Translations under genes and position numbers: made by a program
In this document: positions 20,824-46,512 of the stretch, piece after piece
Position numbering within the stretch: the first letter of the stretch is position 1
Layout: every line of letters starts with the position of its first letter
Notes under the pieces: generated by a model
What the model was told of the DNA's origin: nothing
Seen by the model: only the letters and a program-made list of their open reading frames with translations
The model's database searches: none
IMG/VR virus record: IMGVR_UViG_3300042357_000538
Location: 1-62,295 of that record
Length of the DNA: 62,295 nucleotides
From: a virus
Lineage: Duplodnaviria > Caudoviricetes
Direction: 5' to 3' (one strand)

Positions 20824-20898
20824 GGGTTAACACGGCCCGAGTCGAACGGGCTCCTCCCGGCCTTCCAGCCGGGCGCGCTTCCAATGCGCTACGTGATA
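20824..20898 (-). tRNA. Aberrant tRNA-like element with an 8-nt anticodon loop (CTGGAAGG)
   Basis: Acceptor TATCACG/CGTGTTA (one U-U), D arm GCGC-ATTGGAA-GCGC, anticodon stem CCCGG/CCGGG, T arm GCCCG-TTCGACT-CGGGC. Confidence 0.65.
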
Positions 20899-27513: not shown

Positions 27514-28618
27514 GGTCCACCTTCTTGATGAAGTGGCGGTTCTTGTTCATGCCCCGGCCCTCGGCGAGGCGGGCCTGGACGTAGAGCTTCTGGAGCTGGC
27601 CCGCGGTCTTGCGCGAGCGGCTCTTCTGTTCGTTGAACACGTCCCCGAACGTGTAGGGGGAGGGCAGGGCGTTGAAGATCCGCGCCTGTTCCTGCGTGAG
27701 GCCGGGCACGGAGGGGGCGTAGCCGCGCGGGCGGCCGTTCTTGTCGTACACGCGCTCGAAGTACGTGGGGAGAATGTCCCCCTCGTGCTTGGAAAAGCCC
27801 GCGATGCAGTAGGTTTCCTCGGGGTAGGCGGTCCCCGCGCCCTTGGCGATGTCGATCCCCAGGCGGCAGTCGCTCTGATTGATGAGCGCACGGGTGCCGG
27901 CGGCCTCGTTCAGCCACTCGCGGTGGTTGCTTTCCAAATTCGGGGGGTCGATGCCCTTCTGGAGGCGCGCTTCCTTGCGCCGGTGGTGGACGATGATGAT
28001 GGCGCAGGCCGCTTTCGTGGCAATTTGCCGCAAATTGCGCATCACACGGGCGGCGACCTCGCTTTTCAGCTCGGCATCGGGCCAGAACGGCCGCAGGCAG
28101 TCGATGATGACCAGTTTCGGGCCCACGGCGGCCACCAGGTCGCCCACTTTCGCCTCGAATTCGCCCCCCAGGGCCTCTTCCGCCACCTGCGCGTTGGCCA
28201 GGAAGTAGCGGATGTCCTCTTCCCCGGGTGTCACGCCCAGAAAGTCCTCCAGGGCGCGGATGTAGCCCACGAAATGGGAGCCCGCGGACTCCGCATCGCA
28301 GAAGAGGACCTTCCCCTGCTGGGTATCGAGGCCCAGGAAGGGGGTCCCGGTGGCCACGCAGATGGCGAGTTGCTCGAGGAGGGGCGTCTTGCCCAGGCCG
28401 GAGTCCCCGATCAGGAGGTTGACGGTCCCCTCCATGATGAGGTCCTCCACGACGGCGGCTGGGGCCGCCGTCGCGATGGCCCGGAGCTGCGATTTGGTCA
28501 GCGCGTTGCGCAAGGCGAGGCTGTCGCCGGCCATGCCGGCCACGATGGACCCCTGTGGCGGGGCCAACTGGGGGTTGCTGAGGACCACATCGGGCCCCAG
28601 CGTGGTGATATCGACCAT
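27494..28618 (-). CDS. RSF1010 RepA-like (AAA_25, SF4) helicase
   Basis: GDSGLGKT, GKVLFCDAE, LVIIDCL, IIIVHHRRK, AGTRAL; GGAGGAACC RBS. Confidence 0.85.
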   Translation of the reverse strand: MVDITTLGPDVVLSNPQLAPPQGSIVAGMAGDSLALRNALTKSQLRAIATAAPAAVVEDLIMEGTVNLLIGDSGLGKTPLLEQLAICVATGTPFLGLDTQQGKVLFCDAESAGSHFVGYIRALEDFLGVTPGEEDIRYFLANAQVAEEALGGEFEAKVGDLVAAVGPKLVIIDCLRPFWPDAELKSEVAARVMRNLRQIATKAACAIIIVHHRRKEARLQKGIDPPNLESNHREWLNEAAGTRALINQSDCRLGIDIAKGAGTAYPEETYCIAGFSKHEGDILPTYFERVYDKNGRPRGYAPSVPGLTQEQARIFNALPSPYTFGDVFNEQKSRSRKTAGQLQKLYVQARLAEGRGMNKNRHFIKKVDHVDATL

Positions 28619-28719
28619 GGGTGGGTGGTTCCTCCGGGATGTGGGGCCCCGCCGTGGGGCCCCAGGGGTCGGGCGCTCATCCCCGACTCCTTGACCGTAC
28701 CACCCCTCTAGGGGGTAGA

Positions 28720-29470
28720 GTCAAGCGGGTGGCCGCATGGCGGCCACCTCCCCCTCGATCCCCCCGCGTCCCCCGGCGGAGCGCTGCGGAAGGGGGATGA
28801 TGAGGGGTTTGTGGCGCTAAGTCCCGCCACATCAGCGGGTTACGGGGAAAAGAAGGGTGGGGGATGAGGGCGGGAGGTCGGCGGGAGGAGCGTTTTCAGG
28901 CCTGTTTTCGCAGATCCGGCGGGGGATGATCTGGGGGACGATGGCGGGGGAGGCAGTGGGGCGCACACGGCGCCCCTTCGTCCCCCGGGTTGTCCCACTG
29001 GGGAGGTGAGAAAACCGGCCTGTTTTCGCTGAGTCCCTTTGCTCCCCCCTCGATCCCCCTGCTGTAAATAGTGTGTATCCCCTTTATTATCAATAGGATA
29101 GGGGGAAAAGGCGGGTTTCGTCCCCCCAAAAGGAGCTGAATACTCGCCAAGGGACTTCCCAGCCAGGGAAACGCCACCCGTCGGCGGAATGCCTGGACAC
29201 TGTAATCAAACCCCGGGGGGTCGCGCGCGCGGGAAAGGTGGGGTGTGGGTGGGGGTGGCGGGGAGGGGGAGGTCGGCCCCTTGTCCCCCGCCGTGTCCCC
29301 CTCGGCCCCCCTCGTGGCCCCTCTCCTGCCCTGTGTCCTGCTGAGGGGACGGACCCCTGTCCCCTTGCGGCCCCAGTCCCGTCCCACCCGTCCCCTTGCG
29401 GCCCGCTGGCCTGTCCCCCCTATGGGCCAGCCTCCCCGGCTGGCCTGTCCCCCCTATGCCACACTCACCC
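28720..29470. other. Non-coding strand-switch region; candidate replication origin or genome-end region
   Basis: Divergence point of the two gene blocks; AT-rich core at about 29060-29110; many (T)GTCCC(C) repeats at 29280-29455. Confidence 0.5.
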
Positions 29471-29481
29471 CTTGCCTCTGC

Positions 29482-29497
29482 TGGCATCCCCCTTGCA
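29482..29497 (+). promoter_or_regulatory. sigma54-type -24/-12 promoter TGGCAT-CCCCC-TTGCA
   Basis: Matches TGGCAC-N5-TTGCW with exact spacing; identical copy at 31783. Confidence 0.6.
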
Positions 29498-29509
29498 CCC
29501 TAGGTCGGC

Positions 29510-29713
29510 ATGGCACCGACCCGCACCCCCCACGGCTACCCCGTCACCCGGCTTCGTGCCGGGGACTACACCGTCGCCACTCCCGCCGGTGAGTGGACAA
29601 TCCGCCACGAACCCGACTTGCGCGGCTGGCTGGTGCAAGACCGGCACGACGGCGAAGTTTGCGCCACCCTCGCTGAGGCCCTGCGCTACCTCGACGCCAC
29701 CCTGACCCGCTAA
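29510..29713 (+). CDS. Early hypothetical protein, 67 aa
   Basis: First ORF of the plus-strand block; coding-like codon bias. Confidence 0.65.
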   Translation: MAPTRTPHGYPVTRLRAGDYTVATPAGEWTIRHEPDLRGWLVQDRHDGEVCATLAEALRYLDATLTR

Positions 29714-29753
29714 TCCCACGGCACCGACGCCGCCCCTGACCGGAGACACCGAC

Positions 29754-30125
29754 ATGACCACCGCACCCGCCCTGCCCGCCGCCTGCACTGCCGCCCATGC
29801 CGCCGCCGCCCGTGGCGCGGCCCAGTCCTTCCAAATCGAGCGCGAGGCTGAGGCCTTCCTCGGGCGGCGCTGGGCCTTCCTGCCCTTCGACGCCACCCAG
29901 CCCGCCTCGGCACACATCCAGGCCTTCGCGCAGGCCATCCTCCCGAACCTTGGCGAGGCCGAAGCCGCTGAGGCCCTCTGGGCCTGCGGGGAGCGTACCC
30001 CGGCCGACTTCGGCGGCGACGGCCTGCGCGGCTACGCCGACGCCTTCCGCCACACGGTCCTCGGGATGGTCGCCCGCGCCATCCTCGCCCGCTACGTCAT
30101 CGACCTGCCGGAACGGTGGAGGTGA
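29754..30125 (+). CDS. Early hypothetical protein, 123 aa
   Basis: GGAG RBS; codon bias. Confidence 0.7.
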   Translation: MTTAPALPAACTAAHAAAARGAAQSFQIEREAEAFLGRRWAFLPFDATQPASAHIQAFAQAILPNLGEAEAAEALWACGERTPADFGGDGLRGYADAFRHTVLGMVARAILARYVIDLPERWR

Positions 30126-30162
30126 TGGCCCGCTAACCCCCGCGCGGCCCCCCTCGGGGCCG

Positions 30163-30233
30163 CGCCCCGTAATGCCCCGAGCTGGTGACAAGGCCAGCAC
30201 CCGGAATGCCTCCGGGAGGCAGAGTCAGGAGCG
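30163..30233 (+). ncRNA. Twister ribozyme 1 (predicted cleavage U30170/A30171)
   Basis: UAA, P2 UGCC/GGCA, P4 GCUGG/CCAGC, L4 U-GAC-AA-GG, T1 GAC/GUC, T2 CC/GG, P5 hairpin, GA; matches the twister consensus. Confidence 0.88.
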
Positions 30234-30240
30234 AACCCCC

Positions 30241-30489
30241 ATGCAGACCATCTACGCCGCCCTCGCCAACGCCCCCTGCACCCACTGCGCCGGGACTGGA
30301 CTCCTCCACGACGCCCCCGACGAACACACCTGCCCCTACTGCCTCGGGCGCACGACGCCCGACGGCGAGGCCCTCGACAACGCCCCCTGCCTCCTCTGCG
30401 GCGGGACCGGCTACTCGGTGCTGGTCGCTCAGCCGACCAGCGACGACACCTGCCCCGACTGCATGGGCAGCGGCCTCGGCGGCCAGTAG
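30241..30489 (+). CDS. Small DnaJ-type zinc-finger protein (CxxCxGxG-like x4)
   Basis: CTHCAGTG, CPYCLG, CLLCGGTG, CPDCMGSG; AGGAG RBS. Confidence 0.7.
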   Translation: MQTIYAALANAPCTHCAGTGLLHDAPDEHTCPYCLGRTTPDGEALDNAPCLLCGGTGYSVLVAQPTSDDTCPDCMGSGLGGQ

Positions 30490-30492
30490 CCC

Positions 30493-30570
30493 CTATGACA
30501 CACCGGGGCCAGACCACCGGCCCCAGCCCAGCGTATAAAGGGGTAGACCGGGCGGCTTGAGCCGCCGCCC
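30493..30570 (+). promoter_or_regulatory. Repeated element: CTATGACACA, GC inverted repeat, CGTATAAAGG, GAGCC-loop hairpin
   Basis: Same architecture and 41-42 nt spacing at 32462 and 33787. Confidence 0.65.
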
Positions 30571-30597
30571 GCCCCTTGCACCCGGAGGAACCATCCC

Positions 30598-30807
30598 ATG
30601 TCCAGCACCACGCCCATCAACACGCCCTACGCCGTCCTCGAACTGGGCGACGGCCACTTCGTCGTCGCCCGACGGTACCTGCGCGAGGACGGTATCCCGG
30701 TCTACCGGCTGGTGCCGGGAACGGCCGACTGGAGCTACCGCACGGTGCATTTCCGCGCTTCCGGCCTCGCTCAGCAGTCCGCAGTGCGCGAGGAGGTGGC
30801 GAAGTGA
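30598..30807 (+). CDS. Early hypothetical protein, 69 aa
   Basis: GGAGGAACC RBS. Confidence 0.7.
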   Translation: MSSTTPINTPYAVLELGDGHFVVARRYLREDGIPVYRLVPGTADWSYRTVHFRASGLAQQSAVREEVAK

Positions 30808-31145
30808 ACGCCTTCAGCCCGTCCATCCGCTACACCCTCGCCATCGGCCACAACGTCGCCGGTTTCCCCCACTGGTCCCGGGAGACCGTCGAGAGCACGG
30901 TCTCCGCCAATTGGACCCTGCCCGGCTTCACCCTGACCTCGGCCTTTGGCCGCTGGGAAGGCGTGGACGAAGACAGCACCCTCGTCACCTACCTCGGGGA
31001 CGCCTCCGACGAGGCGGCCATCCTCGCCATCGCGGAGCGCATCGCGGCCGACCTGCAGCAGGACGCCGTGCTGGTGACCGCCGAACCCGTGCGCGTCGCC
31101 TTCGTGTCGGCCCTGCGGGCCGACCGGGCCGAACCCGCCGCCTAG
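30804..31145 (+). CDS. SAM-lyase-like / DUF3574-like (PII-type fold) protein, 113 aa
   Basis: GFTLTSAFGRWEGVDEDSTLV...IAERIAADLQQDAVLV resembles the G-x-(W/Y)...E...QD-x-VLV pattern of T3 SAMase; GTG start with AGGAGG RBS. Confidence 0.6.
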   Translation: MNAFSPSIRYTLAIGHNVAGFPHWSRETVESTVSANWTLPGFTLTSAFGRWEGVDEDSTLVTYLGDASDEAAILAIAERIAADLQQDAVLVTAEPVRVAFVSALRADRAEPAA

Positions 31146-31172
31146 CCCCGTGTGGCCCCGCAAGGGGCCCAC

Positions 31173-31252
31173 GCTCGTAATGCCAGCGCCCGGTCCCAAC
31201 TCCGGGCAGTGGCGGGACCATCCTGGCCCCGACCACTCGGCAGAGGGAGAGC
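31173..31252 (+). ncRNA. Twister ribozyme 2 (predicted cleavage U31178/A31179)
   Basis: P1 GCUC/GAGC, P2 UGCC/GGCA, P4 GCCCGG/CCGGGC, L4 U-CCC-AA-CU, T1 CCC/GGG, T2 AG/CU. Confidence 0.88.
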
Positions 31253-31267
31253 AAAGGACACACTGCC

Positions 31268-31456
31268 ATGCCGCGCTACGCGTTCCTGCCCGACCTGCGC
31301 CTCGCGTCCCTCTGGTTCGACGCGGGCTGCGACCCCGTCGCCTACCGCGAGGCGCTCGTCGAGTACCTCGACGAGTCGCCCGACCTGCCGCTGGCCGACC
31401 TGCCCGTGGCCGACGCCGAACTCCGCCGCCTCGACGCCCTGCTGGGCGAGGACTAG
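31268..31456 (+). CDS. Small acidic protein, 62 aa
   Basis: AAAGGA RBS directly after twister 2. Confidence 0.65.
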   Translation: MPRYAFLPDLRLASLWFDAGCDPVAYREALVEYLDESPDLPLADLPVADAELRRLDALLGED

Positions 31457-31460
31457 CGCC

Positions 31461-31772
31461 ATGCCTGCCAACCTCCTCACGCCCATCCCGTGCCCGACCC
31501 CCGGCCGCGTGTGGCTGGTCCCCGCGCTGCCGACCCTCTGGGCCGCCTCCAAAAGCCGCGCCGACAAGGGCCAGGTACTGGCCGCCCTGCGCCGGGAGTG
31601 CGCCGCGCCCAACGTGCGCCGCCCCTTCCGCTGGGAACGGGTTGATGTCGGCCTGCGCACCTACTGGGCACCCTGCTGGGATGCGCCCGCCGCCTGCGCC
31701 CTGTCCCCGCGACAGGCCGAGCAGTACTGCTTTGGGGGACTGGTGCCCTACCCGACCGCCCTCAGGGGGTGA
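31461..31772 (+). CDS. Early hypothetical protein, 103 aa
   Basis: GAGGA RBS; start MPANLLT. Confidence 0.6.
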   Translation: MPANLLTPIPCPTPGRVWLVPALPTLWAASKSRADKGQVLAALRRECAAPNVRRPFRWERVDVGLRTYWAPCWDAPAACALSPRQAEQYCFGGLVPYPTALRG

Positions 31773-31782
31773 CACCACCCCT

Positions 31783-31798
31783 TGGCATCCCCCTTGCA
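31783..31798 (+). promoter_or_regulatory. sigma54-type -24/-12 promoter TGGCAT-CCCCC-TTGCA
   Basis: Identical 16-mer to 29482; predicted start just upstream of GGAGG and ATG 31826. Confidence 0.6.
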
Positions 31799-31825
31799 CC
31801 CTGACCACACCGGAGGAACCATCCC

Positions 31826-32362
31826 ATGAGCCACCCGACCGCCGCCGACTTCGCCTTCATCCGCCACGACGCCCGCGCGTGGTGGCATCACCGTGACCTG
31901 CGCGCCGCCGGTCGCCACGCCGAGGCCGCCCGCCTCGAACGCCGCAGCATCGCCAGCAAAATCCGCGACCTCCGGCGCGCCTGCCTCGTCGGGGTGGGCG
32001 CGGTCTCCCCGTGGTACGTCTCCGGGACGCACAGCAGCCTGTCCACGACCTCCGGCTGCGCGCCCGACACCCTCGCCCTGTTCGCCCGGTTCGCGCCCCA
32101 GACGCCGCGCGTGGACAAGCGCGCGCTGCACGCGGCCGACCCGGCGCGCTTCGCGCGCCTCGTCTACACCGCGCCCCTCCTCTCGCCCGACCGCGCCGAG
32201 GACGAAGTGAGCAGCATCGCGTATGTCACCCCCGGCCTGTACTGCGCCATCTGGGAGGCCCTCGGCGCGACGGTCCACTGGGGCGCGCTTGACGCCCAGG
32301 CCTTCCGCCGCGACCCCCGTGTGGCCGCGCATCTGGCCCGCATGACTCCAGGCGAGGCGTAG
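31826..32362 (+). CDS. Early hypothetical protein, 178 aa
   Basis: GGAGGAACC RBS. Confidence 0.7.
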   Translation: MSHPTAADFAFIRHDARAWWHHRDLRAAGRHAEAARLERRSIASKIRDLRRACLVGVGAVSPWYVSGTHSSLSTTSGCAPDTLALFARFAPQTPRVDKRALHAADPARFARLVYTAPLLSPDRAEDEVSSIAYVTPGLYCAIWEALGATVHWGALDAQAFRRDPRVAAHLARMTPGEA

Positions 32363-32392
32363 TCGGCCCGTCTCGCGGCCCCTCGGGGCCGC

Positions 32393-32463
32393 GCCGTAAT
32401 GCTCCTGACCGGTGCCAAGGCCGGTCGGTCGGTGCGTACCGCACCGCCTCAGCAGAGGCCGGT
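32393..32463 (+). ncRNA. Twister ribozyme 3 (predicted cleavage U32397/A32398)
   Basis: P1 GCCG/CGGU, P2 UGCU/AGCA, P4 GACCGG/CCGGUC, L4 U-GCC-AA-GG, T1 GCC/GGC, T2 CC/GG. Confidence 0.88.
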
Positions 32464-32535
32464 ATGACACACGCGCCCCTCGGCCACCGGTCGGGGGCCA
32501 GCGTCTAAGGGGGTGGAGGGCAGGAGCCGCCCTCC
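32462..32535 (+). promoter_or_regulatory. Repeated element: GTATGACACA, inverted repeat, CGTCTAAGGG, GAGCC-loop hairpin
   Basis: Second copy of the 30493 element. Confidence 0.65.
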
Positions 32536-32558
32536 CCCCGAACTGGAGCGAACCACCC

Positions 32559-32834
32559 ATGACGACTGTCCTGAACCTCCTACACGACGGCCCCGCCGAT
32601 GCGGCGGGCACCCACGGCAACGGCACCCAACTGCATTTCACCCTGACCCCTGGCGAACTGGGCAACGGGGAGGAATTCCTGCTCTCCCTCTGGGACAGTG
32701 CCGAGCAGGCGCAGCGCTACGGGCGCAGCGAGAACGAAGAGGTGCTGGTGCTGACCCTCACCCCCGAGCAGTGCGCCCAGGTCGCCGCTGCCGCCGCCCG
32801 CGCCACCGTCCGCTGGAACCGCGAGGAGGCCTAA
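32559..32834 (+). CDS. Early hypothetical protein, 91 aa; paralogous to 34874..35179
   Basis: LTLTPEQCAQV versus LELTPEQRARL. Confidence 0.65.
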   Translation: MTTVLNLLHDGPADAAGTHGNGTQLHFTLTPGELGNGEEFLLSLWDSAEQAQRYGRSENEEVLVLTLTPEQCAQVAAAAARATVRWNREEA

Positions 32835-32838
32835 CGCC

Positions 32839-33006
32839 ATGCTGAACCCGCGCACCCTCGCCGCCCGCTACCTCCGGACCTACGGCCCGGAGTACGCCCT
32901 CTCTGCCGCCCTGGCCGCCCTCGACGAGGCCCAGGCCTTCGGCTCCGCCACCCGCATCGCGACCCTCGAAGCCGTGGTCGCCACGCTCGAAACCGAGGTG
33001 CTGTGA
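32839..33006 (+). CDS. Early hypothetical protein, 55 aa (not in the ORF track)
   Basis: MLNPRTLAARYLRTYGPEYAL...; GAGGAGG RBS. Confidence 0.6.
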   Translation: MLNPRTLAARYLRTYGPEYALSAALAALDEAQAFGSATRIATLEAVVATLETEVL

Positions 33007-33203
33007 TGCCGCGCTACCGATTCACCCTCACGCGCACCCGCCTGCAGTCCCTGGTGGTGGAGATGGTCGCGCTTGACGCGCAGGAAGCGGAACACCTGCT
33101 GTGCGACGAACTGGATGAAGCCGACCCGTTCGACGCGCTGGTGTGGTCCGACGGCGAGAACGAGGGCGAGGTGGACTACGACTTCGATGGGGAGGTGCGC
33201 TGA
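33006..33203 (+). CDS. Small acidic protein
   Basis: Translationally coupled; D/E-rich C-terminus. Confidence 0.6.
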   Translation: MPRYRFTLTRTRLQSLVVEMVALDAQEAEHLLCDELDEADPFDALVWSDGENEGEVDYDFDGEVR

Positions 33204-33565
33204 TGTTGCGCCTGGGCCTCGACACCGGGTCGGCCATCAACCACCTCATGTCGCGCGCGCGGGTGACCATCCCGGCGGTCGGGGATGGGGCGACCGTCCT
33301 GATGTGGACCGACCGACACGCGGCCACCGTGGTCGCCGTCAAGGAAACGCCGGCGCTGGTCAAGGTGACCGTGCAGGAGGACCGCGCAGTCCGCACCGAC
33401 AGCAACGGCATGAGCGAGGTGCAGGCCTACGCCTTCACGCCGAACCCAGCCGCGCCGCTGCAGACGTTCACCTTCCGCAAGACGCCCGGCGGGCTGGTCT
33501 TGCGGGGCAAGGGGCGCGGTCTCCTGCTGGGCCATCGTGAGGAGTACCGCGACTTCAGTTTCTGA
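33203..33565 (+). CDS. Conserved phage hypothetical protein, 120 aa
   Basis: PAVGDGATVLMWTDRHAATV...GHREEYRDFSF; TGATG coupling. Confidence 0.7.
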   Translation: MLRLGLDTGSAINHLMSRARVTIPAVGDGATVLMWTDRHAATVVAVKETPALVKVTVQEDRAVRTDSNGMSEVQAYAFTPNPAAPLQTFTFRKTPGGLVLRGKGRGLLLGHREEYRDFSF

Positions 33566-33591
33566 CCCAATGGCGGGGCCACGGCCCCGCC

Positions 33592-33666
33592 CCTCGTAAT
33601 GCCGCAGCGCCCAGTGGCAAGCCTGGGCGCGGCGGGGATACTCCCCGCCGAGGGCAGAGCCAGAGG
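33592..33666 (+). ncRNA. Twister ribozyme 4 (predicted cleavage U33597/A33598)
   Basis: P1 CCUC/GAGG, P2 UGCC/GGCA, P4 GCGCCCAG/CUGGGCGC, L4 U-GGC-AA-GC, T1 GGC/GCC, T2 GC/GC. Confidence 0.88.
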
Positions 33667-33677
33667 AAGGAACCGCC

Positions 33678-33785
33678 ATGACCAGCATCCGCTCCCATCG
33701 TGTGGGCCGCGCCCACGCCCTGACCCTGACCGGAGGCCCAGCGATGACCACCACCCTGCCCGACGGCTGGTGGCGGGACGCCTGA
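33678..33785 (+). CDS. 35-aa peptide directly after twister 4
   Basis: GGAAGGAACC RBS; MTSIRSHRVGRAHALTLTGGPAMTTTLPDGWWRDA. Confidence 0.45.
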   Translation: MTSIRSHRVGRAHALTLTGGPAMTTTLPDGWWRDA

Positions 33786-33786
33786 G

Positions 33787-33866
33787 CTATGACACAGCCG
33801 GGGCCGACCAGCGGTCGGCCCCCACCGTCTAAGGGAGTACCAGGGCGCGGGCACTGAGCCGCCCGC
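33787..33866 (+). promoter_or_regulatory. Repeated element: CTATGACACA, inverted repeat, CGTCTAAGGG, GAGCC-loop hairpin
   Basis: Third copy of the 30493 element. Confidence 0.65.
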
Positions 33867-33887
33867 CCCCCTTTGGAGGAACCACCG

Positions 33888-34304
33888 ATGATGACCAACC
33901 CGGCGCAACGCGCCACCCCCACCGTGCAGCAGGAGTCGCAGTTCGGCCAGGACCCCGGCGATATCCAGGTCGCGCTGCCCGCGCTCTTCAGCGCCGACTG
34001 CACCGAGGCGACCCGCGAGTTCCGGACGCGCCCGGACCTCCAGGTGCGATGGTTCATGCCCCTGCGGGCCGCAGGCCCGGAGTCGGACCCGACCGCCCGC
34101 CTCCTCGGGCAGGTGGAACTGTTCGGCGTCCTCCACCACATCGACCTCACCGCCATCCGCCTGGACGGTGACCTCCAGGTGGTGGACTGCCCCGAGGAGG
34201 AGTGCCTGGGCGAGGAGATGTTCACGGTCGTCGGCGGGGCACTCGACCCCGTCATGGTCAACGGACGCCTCTACGGCGTCCTCATCTACCCCTACGGGTA
34301 CTAG
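33888..34304 (+). CDS. Early hypothetical protein, 138 aa
   Basis: GGAGGAACC RBS. Confidence 0.7.
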   Translation: MMTNPAQRATPTVQQESQFGQDPGDIQVALPALFSADCTEATREFRTRPDLQVRWFMPLRAAGPESDPTARLLGQVELFGVLHHIDLTAIRLDGDLQVVDCPEEECLGEEMFTVVGGALDPVMVNGRLYGVLIYPYGY

Positions 34305-34314
34305 GAGCCGCATC

Positions 34315-34542
34315 ATGCCGAACGAAACCTGGGGGGAACTCCTGGCGCGCCAGGAGCGGGAGCGCGCCAACTTCCGGCCCAAGCTGCGCACGTATGCCGT
34401 GTGCCTGCGGGGCATCTGGTCGGAGGTGTACACGGTCGAGGCGCTCAACGAGGAGGAGGCACTCGCTCAGGCCATCGCCCTGGAGCAGGGCAACCAGAAC
34501 CGTGACCTCGACATCAACGGGACCGACATCGACGAACTGTAG
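34315..34542 (+). CDS. Small acidic protein, 75 aa
   Basis: YAVCL...YTVEALNEEEALAQA; AGGAG RBS. Confidence 0.65.
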   Translation: MPNETWGELLARQERERANFRPKLRTYAVCLRGIWSEVYTVEALNEEEALAQAIALEQGNQNRDLDINGTDIDEL

Positions 34543-34555
34543 GAGGACTAGCCCC

Positions 34556-34768
34556 ATGCCGACCATCATCACCCTGACCGTCACCGTCCACGACTCCATC
34601 CCCGAGGCCGCCGAGGCGCTGCATGTGCTGCCCGCGACCCTGCCCCAGGCCATCGCCGAGGAACTCCAGTCCGCGCTGGACTGGGAGACCGGCCTCCACG
34701 CCTCGGTCGAGGTCGCCTCGGTCACCGAGCTGCCCGAGGTCGCGACCGCCACCATCGTTGTGTCATAG
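34556..34768 (+). CDS. Small acidic protein, 70 aa
   Basis: AGGAGG RBS. Confidence 0.6.
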   Translation: MPTIITLTVTVHDSIPEAAEALHVLPATLPQAIAEELQSALDWETGLHASVEVASVTELPEVATATIVVS

Positions 34769-34842
34769 CCCCTTGCGGGGTATTGACACCGCGCACCACG
34801 CGCCCGTAGTATCCGGGGGTCGGGCTTGAGCCGCCCGACCCC
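34759..34842 (+). promoter_or_regulatory. Inverted TGTGTCATAG box, TTGACA-N18-TAGTAT promoter and GAGCC-loop hairpin
   Basis: Read directly. Confidence 0.7.
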
Positions 34843-34873
34843 TGGCTAACCCAGTACCCGGAGGAACCACCCC

Positions 34874-35179
34874 ATGTCCACCCTCAGCCCCGCCGACCTC
34901 ATCCTGCTGCGCGCCACGCGCGGCGACGTTATCACCACGGAGGACGCCGCCCTGGCGCTCTTCCCCGAGCTGGCCTTCACGTTCTACTGCACCGTGGCGG
35001 CCTCCGGCCGACTCGCGCTGTTCCAGAGCCGCGAGGACCGCAACGCGGAAGTGTTCGATGACGAGGTCGCCTTCACGCTCGAGCTGACACCCGAGCAGCG
35101 CGCGCGCCTCATCGAGTACGCCCGGCTGGCCCTCCTCACCCAGGCCTACCCCCGCACCGACGCGCAGGAGGTGGCGTGA
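34874..35179 (+). CDS. Hypothetical protein, 101 aa
   Basis: GGAGGAACC RBS. Confidence 0.7.
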   Translation: MSTLSPADLILLRATRGDVITTEDAALALFPELAFTFYCTVAASGRLALFQSREDRNAEVFDDEVAFTLELTPEQRARLIEYARLALLTQAYPRTDAQEVA

Positions 35180-35604
35180 TGACGGTCACCGTCGTGGAAA
35201 TCGCGCGGAAGAGCAGTTACTACGGTCCCACCTGGACCTGCGTCCCGACCATCGTGCGCGCGGAGACCCCGGAGGACCGCGCCGACCTGCGGACGGCCTA
35301 CGAGAGCTGGCTGAAGCGCACCGAACCCGACACCGAGGCCACCGTGTACCTCCGCGACTACGAGGTGGAGACCGTGGACGCGGTGGTGGCGCGGCTGGCC
35401 CCCACGGTCACCCTGCGCGTGACCCTGGAGGAGGTGGTGGAGCGCGTGGTGCAGGTCGAGGTGCCCGTCACCCACCCCCTGGCCACGGGCAGGGGTTACC
35501 TCCCCGTGCCCGACCTCGCCGAGGTGCTGGACAACGGCGTCACCCTGAGCCGCACCCCCTCATGCCATGTGCGCCCCCTGATCTCCGCCGTGGAGGCGGT
35601 CTGA
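35176..35604 (+). CDS. Hypothetical protein, 142 aa
   Basis: Coupled ORF. Confidence 0.65.
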   Translation: MMTVTVVEIARKSSYYGPTWTCVPTIVRAETPEDRADLRTAYESWLKRTEPDTEATVYLRDYEVETVDAVVARLAPTVTLRVTLEEVVERVVQVEVPVTHPLATGRGYLPVPDLAEVLDNGVTLSRTPSCHVRPLISAVEAV

Positions 35605-43426: not shown

Positions 43427-43761
43427 CACTCACCGACGAGCAGGTGCGGGCGCTGGCGGAGGAAGTCCACGACGTGGAGCAGACGTGGGAGGGGCACACG
43501 TTCCGCTTCATGTTCACCGGGCGTGAGCCGATCCGCCAGCATGTGCGGGCCGACGCGGTCAAGGCCCTCGCCACCGAAGTCCTCGCCAGCCGGGGGCGGC
43601 GGTGTGGGGCGTGTGTCTACTGGGAGGCCCACCCAGACTTGTGGGCACAAGACTCGGACGGCAATCACTTGGGAAACTGTGGCCGAGGAGTGGACGCAGA
43701 GAGTGGCTGCACGCGCCTGCGCTGGTCCTGCGCCGACTTCACCCCCAAGGGTGTGTCATAG
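43423..43761 (+). CDS. Hypothetical protein with CGACVYW...GNC...CADF
   Basis: ATGA coupling. Confidence 0.6.
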   Translation: MTLTDEQVRALAEEVHDVEQTWEGHTFRFMFTGREPIRQHVRADAVKALATEVLASRGRRCGACVYWEAHPDLWAQDSDGNHLGNCGRGVDAESGCTRLRWSCADFTPKGVS

Positions 43762-44671: not shown

Positions 44672-44852
44672 GTGTGTGTGGGCTCAGGCCCACACACCCG
44701 AGCCGCACCACGCAGGCGACCCCCAGGGGTCGCCTGTTCGCGTCTCTGGGGCCATGGATGAGGATAGGAAATCTCCGCCTATGGCACACGCGCTCCCGGG
44801 CGCGGGTGTGCGGTCGGCGAGACTGGGACGTTCATCACCAGGGAGGTGCATC

Positions 44853-46432: not shown

Positions 46433-46512
46433 CTATGACACAGCGCGTAACCCCCGCGCGCGCAGAAACATGGCGGAAAGGCCTTGACGCTACCCCTGCC
46501 CACCCCTAGGAT
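46433..46512 (+). promoter_or_regulatory. CTATGACACA box plus TTGACG-N17-TAGGAT promoter; near-leaderless polymerase mRNA
   Basis: The -10 element ends 8 nt before ATG 46521. Confidence 0.6.

What the first reader, a model, noticed from the sequence alone, without database searches (positions are those of the whole stretch)
29454..33870. Strict promoter-twister alternation, with a U-less GC hairpin before each cut site
Seen: the order is P(29482), T1, P(30493), T2, P(31783), T3, P(32462), T4, P(33787). Each twister is immediately preceded by a strong GC hairpin lacking a U-tract (about 30143-30164, 31150-31172, 32374-32393, 33572-33591), shortly after a stop codon. Inference: hairpin plus ribozyme replaces a terminator. 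It gives the upstream mRNA a protected 3' end while polymerase continues, and gives the downstream RNA a structured 5'-OH end that RNase E handles poorly. I know of no described transcription-unit design like this.
Basis: inference. Interest (0 to 1): 0.85.

Follow-up and report, generated by a model that had tools for sequence, protein, structure and literature searches.

The report
Hairpin-plus-twister ribozyme cassettes in phage
A lake-water phage carries four self-cleaving twister ribozymes, each just behind a strong hairpin at the end of a gene, which probably cuts a long transcript into separately protected messages; other phages and an engineered expression system use the same layout, so it is a good example, not a new principle.

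Summary
The window is a complete 62-kb, 70% GC phage record. The four twisters are real candidates. All four share the twister core, P2, P4 and P5, and both pseudoknots are complementary in 4 of 4 through different base pairs. A covariance model built only from other phages' twisters ranks them as the window's top four hits. None reaches an Rfam gathering score.

Each is preceded by a U-less GC hairpin (-19.5 to -24.8 kcal/mol). The hairpin starts 3-16 nt after a stop codon and ends 3-5 nt before the cut site. This hairpin matches the known optional "P0" stem of twisters and hatchets.

The "promoters" are two unrelated motif kinds: a sigma-54-like 19-mer (2 copies) and a ~100-nt structured motif (3 copies). 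Neither fits the phage's own sigma-70-type promoters, and promoter identity is unproven.

The layout is not unique. Five other IMG/VR phage records carry 2-9 twisters each, mostly with a hairpin at the cut site, and one array leaves no room for internal promoters. Ribozyme-flanked genes in prophages were described in 2011. A synthetic system (pRAP) uses exactly stem-loop + twister + RBS.

Verdict: a new member of a known kind. The 3'-end-protection reading is plausible but untested.

The parts
29455..29463 (+). One-mismatch variant of the TATGACACA 9-mer, upstream of g1
29482..29500 (+). Sigma-54-like 19-mer (TGGCAT-N5-TTGCA core), copy 1. It ends 10 nt before the g1 start codon.
   Evidence: 2 exact matches to the 16-nt core; mean 0.07 in 100 shuffles; the two copies are identical, so they count as one event
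29510..30125 (+). g1 (29510-29713) and g2 (29754-30125), small proteins of unknown function
   Evidence: third-position GC; no PHROG or Pfam hit
30142..30165 (+). P0-type GC hairpin 1 (10 bp, tetraloop)
30166..30230 (+). Twister T1. The predicted cut is between U30170 and A30171.
   Evidence: R1 30.6 bits, E 1.3e-6
30241..30489 (+). g3, an 82-aa CxxC zinc-ribbon-like protein, the first gene after T1
   Evidence: phrog_6060 'Q-like', 6.2e-6; DnaJ_CXXCXGXG at 28.5 bits, below the 32.7 cut-off
30494..30597 (+). M1: TATGACACA, stem-loop 1, a CGTATAAAGGGG box, stem-loop 2, then the ribosome-binding site of g4.
30598..31145 (+). g4 (30598-30807) and g5 (30804-31145)
   Evidence: g5: phrog_16022, 4.6e-7
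31149..31173 (+). P0-type GC hairpin 2 (10 bp with one bulge, GCAA loop)
31174..31251 (+). Twister T2. The predicted cut is between U31178 and A31179.
   Evidence: R1 23.7 bits, E 1.3e-4
31268..31772 (+). g6 (31268-31456) and g7 (31461-31772)
31783..31801 (+). Sigma-54-like 19-mer, copy 2, in the 53-nt gap before g8.
31826..32362 (+). g8, 178 aa, unknown function
32374..32393 (+). P0-type GC hairpin 3 (8 bp)
32393..32463 (+). Twister T3. The predicted cut is between U32397 and A32398. It is followed directly by M2, with no gene between.
   Evidence: R1 only 14.9 bits, E 0.049; the MFE fold shows P4 and P5 but not P2
32463..32558 (+). M2.
32559..33565 (+). g9 (32559-32834), g10 (32839-33006), g11 (33003-33203) and g12 (33203-33565)
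33572..33591 (+). P0-type GC hairpin 4 (8 bp)
33593..33665 (+). Twister T4. The predicted cut is between U33597 and A33598.
   Evidence: R1 36.5 bits, E 2.6e-8
33678..33785 (+). g13, a 35-aa ORF after T4
   Evidence: read; no Pfam hit
33788..33887 (+). M3.
33888..34304 (+). g14, the last gene of the block, convergent with a minus-strand ORF at 34282-34755

Best explanation
The 29.5-34.3 kb block holds 14 small genes and is read as long transcripts.

PROPOSED MECHANISM.
1. At four gene ends the RNA polymerase passes a GC hairpin that has no U tract. This is the optional P0 stem of a type-P1 twister.
2. It then transcribes a twister made of P2, P4, P5 and two pseudoknots.
3. The twister cuts itself between U and A, 3-5 nt behind the hairpin.
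4. P1 is only 2-4 bp long, so the two products separate.
5. The upstream message ends in hairpin + 4-6 nt + a 2',3'-cyclic phosphate. That end is a poor substrate for 3' exonucleases.
6. The downstream message begins with a 5'-OH inside the folded ribozyme. Its next start codon lies 14-20 nt after the ribozyme for T1, T2 and T4; T3 is followed by motif M2 instead.

The cassette is thus a natural counterpart of the engineered stem-loop + twister + RBS unit.

SHOWN: the sequence and structure features and their geometry.
INFERRED: transcription through the hairpin, cleavage activity, and every effect on RNA stability.

The interleaved motifs (M x3, sigma-54-like x2) may be promoters or leader RNA elements; this is undecided.
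For: TWISTER IDENTITY. The core pattern matches 4 times against 0 in 100 shuffles. Both pseudoknots and the fourth P2 pair are complementary in 4 of 4 copies, with 3-4 different pair types. Among 121 matches of the same loose pattern in other viral contigs, only 4 met these conditions. Model R1 was built from 5 twisters of two other phage records and contains no window sequence. It ranks T4, T1, T2 and T3 as the window's top four hits with filters off. The MFE folds agree for 3 of 4.

HAIRPINS. No U tract and no terminator-like call was found at these sites.

SAME LAYOUT ELSEWHERE. RF03160 finds 9, 5, 2, 2 and 2 sub-threshold twisters in five other IMG/VR records. A hairpin of 7 bp or more ending within 6 nt of the cut occurs in 9 of 9 (G004, background 161/2000) and 4 of 5 (G002, background 85/2000), but in 0 of 2 in G001, which has only a 5-bp stem.

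DESIGN WORKS. In pRAP the stem-loop before the twister was essential (PMC9872166).

P1 DISPENSABLE. Stem P1 is not needed for twister cleavage (PMC5408937).

POPULATION VARIANTS. DNA contigs from lake metagenomes show few changes in T3 and T4. One lies in a loop, one keeps a G-U pair, and one breaks an outer P5 pair.
Against: - No RNA data exist, so cleavage and read-through are untested.
- None of the four reaches an Rfam gathering score.
- T3 is borderline with R1 (14.9 bits, against 14.7 for the best non-twister hit), and its MFE fold lacks P2.
- The A-rich junction before the 3' strand of P2 is 'UAAA' in the Rfam consensus and 'AA' in R1. Here it is A, C, UC and GAG, so activity could be impaired.
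- A 5'-OH end is an entry site for RNase J1 (PMC3997798), so the downstream RNA could be destabilised in a host that has RNase J. The host is unknown.
- P0 was found dispensable, and its role 'not apparent', for hatchet ribozymes (PMC4604424).
- Some phage twisters have a long P1 and no hairpin (L141, L199 family).
- No relative of this phage could be found to test conservation.
Confidence: 0.6

Rival explanations
1. The hairpin is only a folding aid for the ribozyme. As P0, it would shield the core from the upstream coding RNA or pause the polymerase. It would have no role in protecting the upstream message.
For: P0 is a recognised optional stem of twisters, and about 90% of hatchets have one. 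In G004 and L152 the hairpin at the same place is P1 of a permuted twister, preceded by a second GCAGAG box, so there it is part of the ribozyme itself.
Against: P0 was dispensable for hatchet cleavage, and P1 is dispensable for twister cleavage. In pRAP the stem-loop mattered for expression of the upstream cistrons, not for cleavage. The stems here (-19.5 to -24.8 kcal/mol) are much stronger than an insulator would need.
Confidence: 0.15
2. The hairpins are real, partly efficient U-less terminators of a high-GC host. The twisters would then only trim the fraction of transcripts that reads through.
For: The hairpins sit 3-16 nt after stop codons. Another motif that could be a promoter follows within 0-600 nt. 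One twister in G003 sits 11 nt behind a hairpin with a T run.
Against: No T run follows any of the four hairpins. Four intact ribozymes with covarying pseudoknots would not be kept if they were rarely transcribed. Genes g3, g6-g7 and g13 have no promoter-like motif of their own between the twister and their start codon.
Confidence: 0.12
3. The interleaved 'P' motifs are not promoters. M would be a structured leader RNA (two stem-loops, an SD-like box without a start codon) inside a single long transcript. The block would then be one operon punctuated only by ribozymes, as in G004.
For: M has no -35 box, and its TATGAC has C where sigma-70 -10 boxes have their conserved T. The sigma-70 scan finds none of the five sites. 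The phage's clear promoters look different (TTGACA/G-N17/18-TAGTAT or TAGGAT). The three M copies keep two stem-loops, with 5 of 23 predicted pairs changed on both sides, and fold with z-scores of -1.8 to -3.5. In G004, 7 of 8 inter-twister intervals leave 55 nt or less of non-coding sequence.
Against: TATGACACA occurs 6 times exactly (0.03 expected), always between genes and on both strands. Twice it has a -35-like box 16 nt upstream, and once it lies directly before a possibly leaderless ORF; that suits a -10-like or operator site. If TATGAC is a -10 box, stem-loop 1 begins at about +1. The sigma-54-like core has the exact GG-N10-GC spacing.
Confidence: 0.45
4. RNAs bounded by two twisters carry a 5'-OH and a 2',3'-cyclic phosphate. 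They would be joined by an RtcB-type ligase into circular or recombined messages.
For: The end chemistry of twister products fits RtcB substrates (established knowledge). The three inter-twister segments are 1.0-1.2 kb long.
Against: Perreault et al. looked for spliced or circular products of clustered hammerheads and found none (PMC3088659). No ligase gene was seen among the 39 distinct window ORFs that I scanned.
Confidence: 0.03

Closest known systems
Type-P1 twister ribozyme with the optional P0 stem (Roth et al. 2014, recalled; summarised in PMC5408937, passages read)
   Same: U-A cut site followed by AUGC, P2, P4 with an 8-nt GU..CAA.. loop, a GAG tail, two pseudoknots, an optional P5, and a hairpin 5' of the cut site.
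   Different: P1 is only 2-4 bp. The pseudoknot sequences differ from the consensus in 3 of 4 copies. The A-rich junction is not kept. All four score below Rfam gathering thresholds.
Clustered hammerhead ribozymes flanking genes in prophages (Perreault et al. 2011, PMC3088659, passages read)
   Same: Several self-cleaving ribozymes lie close together, flanking single genes or short gene blocks of unknown function in a phage. They were proposed to cut long phage transcripts into gene-length mRNAs.
   Different: The ribozyme class is different. No role for an upstream hairpin and no interleaved promoter-like motifs were described in the passages I read.
pRAP, ribozyme-assisted polycistronic co-expression (PMC9872166, passages read)
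   Same: The same unit order: ORF, stem-loop, twister, RBS, next ORF. The stem-loop ends the released upstream mRNA and was needed for its expression.
   Different: It is engineered, T7-driven, uses identical repeats and runs in E. coli. It has one promoter and one terminator, with nothing interleaved.
P0 hairpin of hatchet ribozymes (PMC4604424, passages read)
   Same: A hairpin without sequence conservation lies a few nt 5' of the cleavage site in about 90% of members and is not needed for catalysis.
   Different: The ribozyme class is different, and its role is stated as not apparent.
Twister arrays in other IMG/VR phage records found here (G004 with 9, G002 with 5, L152 with 3)
   Same: Two to nine twisters lie on one strand within 5-6 kb. 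Each is between genes, with a hairpin at the cut site and a start codon shortly after.
   Different: G004 and L152 use a permuted form in which the hairpin is P1 and a GCAGAG box precedes it. G004 has no room for promoters between its ribozymes. These records have 55-58% GC and are unrelated phages.

Membership tests
Twister self-cleaving ribozyme | Conserved core letters: U-A cut site followed by A, P4 loop GU..CAA.., and GAG after the 3' strand of P2 | tested here: met
   4 of 4 copies; the consensus is as printed by Rfam
Twister self-cleaving ribozyme | Stems P2 and P4 | tested here: met
   P2 is UGCY/RGCA in 4 of 4, with one U-A/C-G change. P4 is 5-8 bp in 4 of 4. MFE folds show P2 in 3 of 4 and P4 in 4 of 4.
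Twister self-cleaving ribozyme | Two pseudoknots linking the P4 loop to the two internal loops | tested here: met
   All variable positions pair in 4 of 4 copies, with 4 and 3 different pair combinations. Only 4 of 121 loose-pattern matches elsewhere do so. The alignment was made by a regular expression of my own, not by a tool.
Twister self-cleaving ribozyme | Stem P1 next to the cut site | tested here: inconclusive
   Only 2-4 possible pairs, read by eye. P1 is reported as dispensable for cleavage.
Twister self-cleaving ribozyme | Score at or above the Rfam gathering threshold (RF03160, RF02684) | tested here: not met
   No hit at gathering score. The best are 19.7 and 18.9 bits against cut-offs of 37.6 and 67.2. 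The 20 twisters of five other phage records are also all below the cut-off.
Twister self-cleaving ribozyme | A-rich junction before the 3' strand of P2 | tested here: not met
   The junction is A, C, UC and GAG in T1-T4, against UAAA in the Rfam consensus and AA in R1.
Twister self-cleaving ribozyme | Self-cleavage giving a 2',3'-cyclic phosphate and a 5'-OH | not testable with these tools
   No RNA run holds the stretch.
P0 stem (optional accessory hairpin of twister and hatchet) | A hairpin on the 5' side of the cut site, a few nt away, without sequence conservation | tested here: met
   4 of 4 copies, ending 3-5 nt before the cut-site U, with different stem sequences.
Intrinsic (rho-independent) terminator | GC-rich hairpin followed by a U tract | tested here: not met
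   No T run follows any of the four hairpins. The scan reports no terminator-like site there.
Sigma-70-type promoter (for the five 'P' sites) | -35 and -10 hexamers at 16-18 nt, with A at position 2 and T at position 6 of the -10 | tested here: not met
   None of the five 'P' sites is reported (0 of 5); the only site in 28500-35500 lies at 34783-34812.
Sigma-54 promoter (29482, 31783) | TGGCAC-N5-TTGCW with GG and GC 10 nt apart | tested here: met
   2 exact matches against a mean of 0.07 in shuffles. The two are identical copies, and with one mismatch allowed there is no excess (2 against 2.15). The consensus is recalled.
Sigma-54 promoter (29482, 31783) | A host with sigma-54 and an enhancer-binding activator; a mapped start about 12 nt downstream | not testable with these tools
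   The host is unknown. The nearest genome relatives of one phage protein are Acidobacteriota MAGs at 33-38% identity.

The most novel reading that the evidence does not exclude
This phage, and others such as G002, G004 and L152, would run accessory-gene blocks without terminators. Each message is defined at its 3' end by a hairpin that a twister exposes. The hairpin may be P0 or a permuted P1, so the permutation is chosen such that the upstream product always ends in a stem. In this phage each message would also be defined at its 5' end by a new structured leader (M: a promoter-like 9-mer, a 5' stem-loop, an SD-like box without a start codon, and a second stem-loop). The cassettes would be exchangeable modules: one lake population replaces the T2 module with 353 other letters.
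Probability: 0.25. Interest if true: 0.65.

Novelty: new member of a known kind. Interest (0 to 1): 0.4.

Why it matters
What bacterial and phage twisters are for is still open (PMC6765202 and PMC5408937, passages read). This window gives a clean natural case in which four ribozymes each sit 3-5 nt behind a strong hairpin at a gene end. My survey shows the same geometry in unrelated phages, whichever circular permutation the ribozyme has. Together with the pRAP result, this turns the unexplained P0 stem into a testable idea: the ribozyme exists to expose a protective 3' hairpin and to free the next cistron. It also shows that whole arrays of phage twisters lie below Rfam thresholds (0 of 5 records over the cut-off), so routine annotation misses them.

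Tried and rejected
RNA EVIDENCE. No RNA holder is listed among the 24 runs, all lake or freshwater metagenomes. I laid four DNA runs instead. Contigs cannot show RNA ends.

FIRST VIRAL SCAN FOR TWISTERS. My pattern was wrong by one letter in the P4 loop and does not match the window's own twisters. Its 47 stretches are chance matches, and its 'no relatives' result is void. The corrected pattern was verified on the window and then scanned.

HOMOLOGUES OF MOTIF M. The 68 stretches in viral contigs and the 33 in metagenome contigs are, in my reading of the printed sequences, chance matches. All 68 viral loci have 28-48% GC. The metagenome loci have 25-53% GC except four (L275, L280, L287, L292, 61-67%). 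None shows M's GC-rich stem-loops. No homologue was found.

RELATIVES OF THE PHAGE.
- blastn against cultured phages: no match.
- The AAA_25 protein alone in viral contigs: none.
- Its homologues at 49-87% identity sit mainly on contigs of 1.4-4 kb; only the 49%-identical one (P0011) lies on a 14.7-kb contig.
- An alignment-based search gave only 27-38%-identical loci in genomes and 32%-identical loci in viral contigs.
- Neither set has an R1 hit.

RFAM ON M AND THE 19-MER. Nothing at E up to 10.

FORMAL PAIR COUNTING. MAFFT misplaced T4's 2-nt insertion or the 3' half, and the R1 alignment misplaced one letter of T1. I therefore tallied pairs with a script and did not use the count of structure pairs.

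CANDIDATE REPRESSOR AND NEIGHBOUR AT 34.3-35.2 kb. No Pfam hit, so the 'immunity region' reading rests on promoter geometry alone.

Roth 2014, Weinberg 2015 and Felletti 2017 are not held. What I say of them is recalled or taken from citing papers, and their text and supplements may already describe P0 function or twister arrays. Supplementary files were not opened.

Full report
WHAT THE WINDOW IS. The window is one whole IMG/VR virus record of 62,295 bases with direct terminal repeats and about 70% GC throughout. By third-position GC, the genes run on the minus strand from 444 to 28618. These include a P22-like portal and an AAA_25 ATPase. They run on the plus strand from 29510 to 51158, including a PD-(D/E)XK nuclease, an integrase and a family-A DNA polymerase. 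They run on the minus strand again from 51199. The finding lies at the start of the plus-strand block, just after a 0.9-kb divergent gap. It covers 14 small genes, of which almost none has a family match.

THE TWISTERS ARE REAL CANDIDATES. A core pattern (the cut site with AUGC, the GU..CAA of the P4 loop, and the GCAGAG box) matches four times, at 30168, 31176, 32395 and 33595. All are on the plus strand, and there were no matches in 100 shuffles. Parsing the four copies gives the following:
- P2 is UGCY/RGCA.
- P4 has 5-8 pairs with an 8-nt loop.
- A closed P5 hairpin is present.
- The three loop letters before AA pair with the G of GAG plus the next two letters: GAC/GUC, CCC/GGG, GCC/GGC, GGC/GCC.
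- The two letters after P2 pair with the two letters after AA: CC/GG, AG/CU, CC/GG, GC/GC.

Every variable pseudoknot position pairs in 4 of 4 copies, through different pairs. At the window's base composition, four such positions pair by chance in about 2.6% of sequences. As an empirical control, 121 matches of the same loose pattern in other viral contigs gave only 4 with all these pairings, and those 4 look like true twisters.

RNAfold returns the P2-P4-P5 junction for T1, T2 and T4, and P4 plus P5 for T3. As an independent test I built a covariance model from five twisters of two other phage records, with no window sequence in it. With filters off it ranks T4 (36.5 bits, E 2.6e-8), T1 (30.6, 1.3e-6), T2 (23.7, 1.3e-4) and T3 (14.9, 0.049) as the top four hits of the window. 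The next hit scores 14.7 bits and is a truncated match.

POINTS AGAINST. Rfam reports none of the four at gathering score, and only T2 and T4 appear weakly at the E-value threshold. T3 is borderline. The A-rich junction before the 3' strand of P2 is not kept. P1 has only 2-4 possible pairs (read), although P1 is reported as dispensable for cleavage (PMC5408937, passages).

THE HAIRPINS ARE REAL AND ARE THE KNOWN P0 POSITION. GC stems of 8-10 pairs with 4-nt loops lie at 30142-30165, 31149-31173, 32374-32393 and 33572-33591, with energies of -19.5 to -24.8 kcal/mol. They start 16, 3, 11 and 6 nt after the stop codons of g2, g5, g8 and g12. They end 4, 4, 3 and 5 nt before the cut-site U. No T run follows, and the terminator scan reports nothing there. 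By a strict rule, 3 of 4 pass against a background of 202 of 3000 positions; the fourth has a bulged stem.

The literature names an optional P0 stem for twisters (PMC5408937). It describes P0 of hatchets as a hairpin a few nt 5' of the cleavage site, present in about 90% of members, without sequence conservation, dispensable, and of no apparent role (PMC4604424).

THE 'PROMOTERS' ARE TWO DIFFERENT THINGS, AND NEITHER IS SHOWN TO BE A PROMOTER.

The 19-mer. The sites at 29482 and 31783 are identical 19-mers whose core fits the sigma-54 pattern TGGCAY-N5-TTGCW exactly. There are 2 matches against 0.07 expected. But the two copies are one repeated element, and with one mismatch allowed there is no excess.

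Motif M. The sites at 30493, 32462 and 33787 are copies of a ~100-nt motif that I call M. It consists of the 9-mer TATGACACA, a stem-loop, a conserved CGTCTAAGGGGGT-like box that resembles a Shine-Dalgarno sequence but has no start codon behind it, a second stem-loop, and then the true ribosome-binding site. The three copies keep the two stem-loops, with 5 of 23 predicted pairs changed on both sides.

The 9-mer. It occurs six times exactly against 0.03 expected, always between genes and on both strands. Twice it has a -35-like box 16 nt upstream. Once it lies next to an inverted copy and directly before a possibly leaderless minus-strand ORF. That suits a -10-like box or an operator.

Comparison with the phage's clear promoters. 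Its clear sigma-70-type promoters read TTGACA/G, 17-18 nt, then TAGTAT or TAGGAT, at about 34.79, 40.83 and 46.47 kb. M has no -35 box, and the scan reports none of the five 'P' sites. The order P-T-P-T-P-T-P-T-P is therefore true of motifs. Every gap over 40 nt in the block holds either hairpin+twister, or M, or the 19-mer. 'Promoter' remains a hypothesis.

THE LAYOUT IS NOT UNIQUE.
- Scans with corrected patterns and an Rfam search of five other IMG/VR records found 9, 5, 2, 2 and 2 twister matches, all below the gathering score. In G004 the nine lie within 5 kb, and in G002 the five lie within 6 kb, each on one strand.
- A perfect stem of 7 pairs or more ends within 6 nt of the cut site in 9 of 9 (G004), 4 of 5 (G002; the fifth has an interrupted stem of -20.3 kcal/mol) and 0 of 2 (G001, 5-bp stem). 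Backgrounds are 4-8%.
- G003 and G005 show the same two sequences at these sites, so they are not independent.
- In G002 the hairpin is a P0, as here. In G004 and in a further array of three (L152) a second GCAGAG box precedes the hairpin. The ribozyme there is a permuted form and the hairpin is its P1. In both forms the upstream product ends in a stem.
- Exceptions exist. L141 and the L199 family have a 5-6-bp P1 and no hairpin, and L121 has P0 plus a real P1.
- In G004, 7 of 8 intervals between cut sites leave at most 55 nt of non-coding sequence beside the ORFs. There is no room for promoters there.

WHAT IS IN PRINT.
- Perreault et al. 2011 reported that several hammerheads often flank single genes or short gene blocks in prophages. 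They proposed that long phage transcripts are processed into gene-length mRNAs, and they showed cleavage in vitro and in E. coli (PMC3088659, passages).
- A 2019 review repeats the idea for twisters and says the purpose remains to be defined (PMC6765202, passages).
- The engineered pRAP system places stem-loop, twister and RBS between cistrons. Without the stem-loop only the last cistron was expressed (PMC9872166, passages).
- I could not read Roth 2014, Weinberg 2015 or Felletti 2017.
- My searches found no paper that assigns the natural P0 hairpin a 3'-end-protecting role, or that describes promoter-like motifs alternating with twisters. The library lacks most subscription papers.

MECHANISM. 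Only 3-5 nt separate hairpin and cut site, so the ribozyme can only be made by polymerase that has passed the hairpin. Read-through is therefore implied. Cleavage would leave the upstream message with a terminal stem, a 4-6-nt tail and a cyclic phosphate. The short P1 would let the products part. The next start codon follows 14-20 nt after T1, T2 and T4, while T3 is followed at once by M2.

That 3' exonucleases need a single-stranded tail, and that RNase E prefers a 5' monophosphate, is established knowledge that I recall. That RNase J1 attacks a 5'-OH end is documented for glmS (PMC3997798). The fate of the downstream RNA therefore depends on the unknown host.

POPULATION DATA. DNA contigs of lake metagenomes hold close variants. 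The listed changes inside the ribozymes are few. 32437 lies in the P5 loop, 32447 breaks an outer P5 pair, and 33608 changes C to T and keeps a G-U pair. One population replaces 31105-31268 (the end of g5, the hairpin, T2 and its leader) with 353 other letters. Coverage is patchy and 43 further differences were not shown, so I draw no rate comparison.

VERDICT. It is not new as a design, since the idea, the hairpin and the engineered equivalent are all known. It is a new, well-formed member of a known kind, and it gives a useful lead on what P0 is for.

Noticed in passing
window 30494-30597, 32463-32558, 33788-33887: Motif M is a ~100-nt element in three copies, with two covarying stem-loops and a conserved SD-like box (UAAGGGGGU type) that has no start codon behind it. 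It matches no Rfam family at E up to 10 and has no homologue in viral or metagenome contigs. It may be a new leader RNA or a promoter-plus-leader.
   Followed up: partly
window 34759-34812: An inverted pair of TATGACAC-like half-sites surrounds a small palindrome and overlaps a canonical TTGACA-18-TAGTAT promoter facing right. A possibly leaderless minus-strand ORF (34755-34282) starts 4 nt after the 9-mer. This looks like an immunity switch, but neither flanking protein has a Pfam hit.
   Followed up: partly
window 43752-43760 (-), 46434-46442 (+), 44780-44788 (+): Further copies of the TATGACACA 9-mer (one with a mismatch) lie in intergenic gaps, each followed at once by a short hairpin. The copy at 46434 lies about 50 nt upstream of a clear TTGACG-N17-TAGGAT promoter before the DNA polymerase gene.
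   Followed up: no
window 31105-31268: In one lake metagenome run (X7) a contig replaces this stretch (the end of g5, the hairpin, T2 and its leader) with 353 other letters while keeping both flanks. This suggests a module swap at a ribozyme cassette. The letters were not shown.
   Followed up: no
G004:C1:20198-25140 (L262) and L152:544-3166: Arrays of 9 and 3 twisters in other phages have a GCAGAG box both before the hairpin and after P4. Two alternative 3' strands could therefore complete each ribozyme. The downstream box doubles as the ribosome-binding site (GAGGAG) of the next gene.
   Followed up: partly
window 29340-29500: The divergent gap holds repeated CCCCTTGC boxes (at least four) and two copies of a ~21-nt repeat ending in CCTATG. 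These are probably the block's main control region.
   Followed up: no
window 20827-20898 (-): A tRNA gene (47.5 bits) lies among the structural genes, just downstream of the portal gene.
   Followed up: no
window 30241-30489: g3, the first gene released by T1, is an 82-aa protein with repeated CxxC pairs. It has weak hits to Q-like antiterminator PHROGs (6.2e-6) and to the DnaJ zinc-finger domain (below cut-off). An antiterminator would fit read-through of the hairpins, but the hits may reflect the cysteines alone.
   Followed up: no
window 30226-30240, 33661-33677: The 3' strand of the short P1 overlaps or abuts the purine-rich ribosome-binding region of the next gene (AGGAG after T1, AGAGGAAGGA after T4). 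Cleavage and release of the upstream product could therefore unmask it.
   Followed up: no
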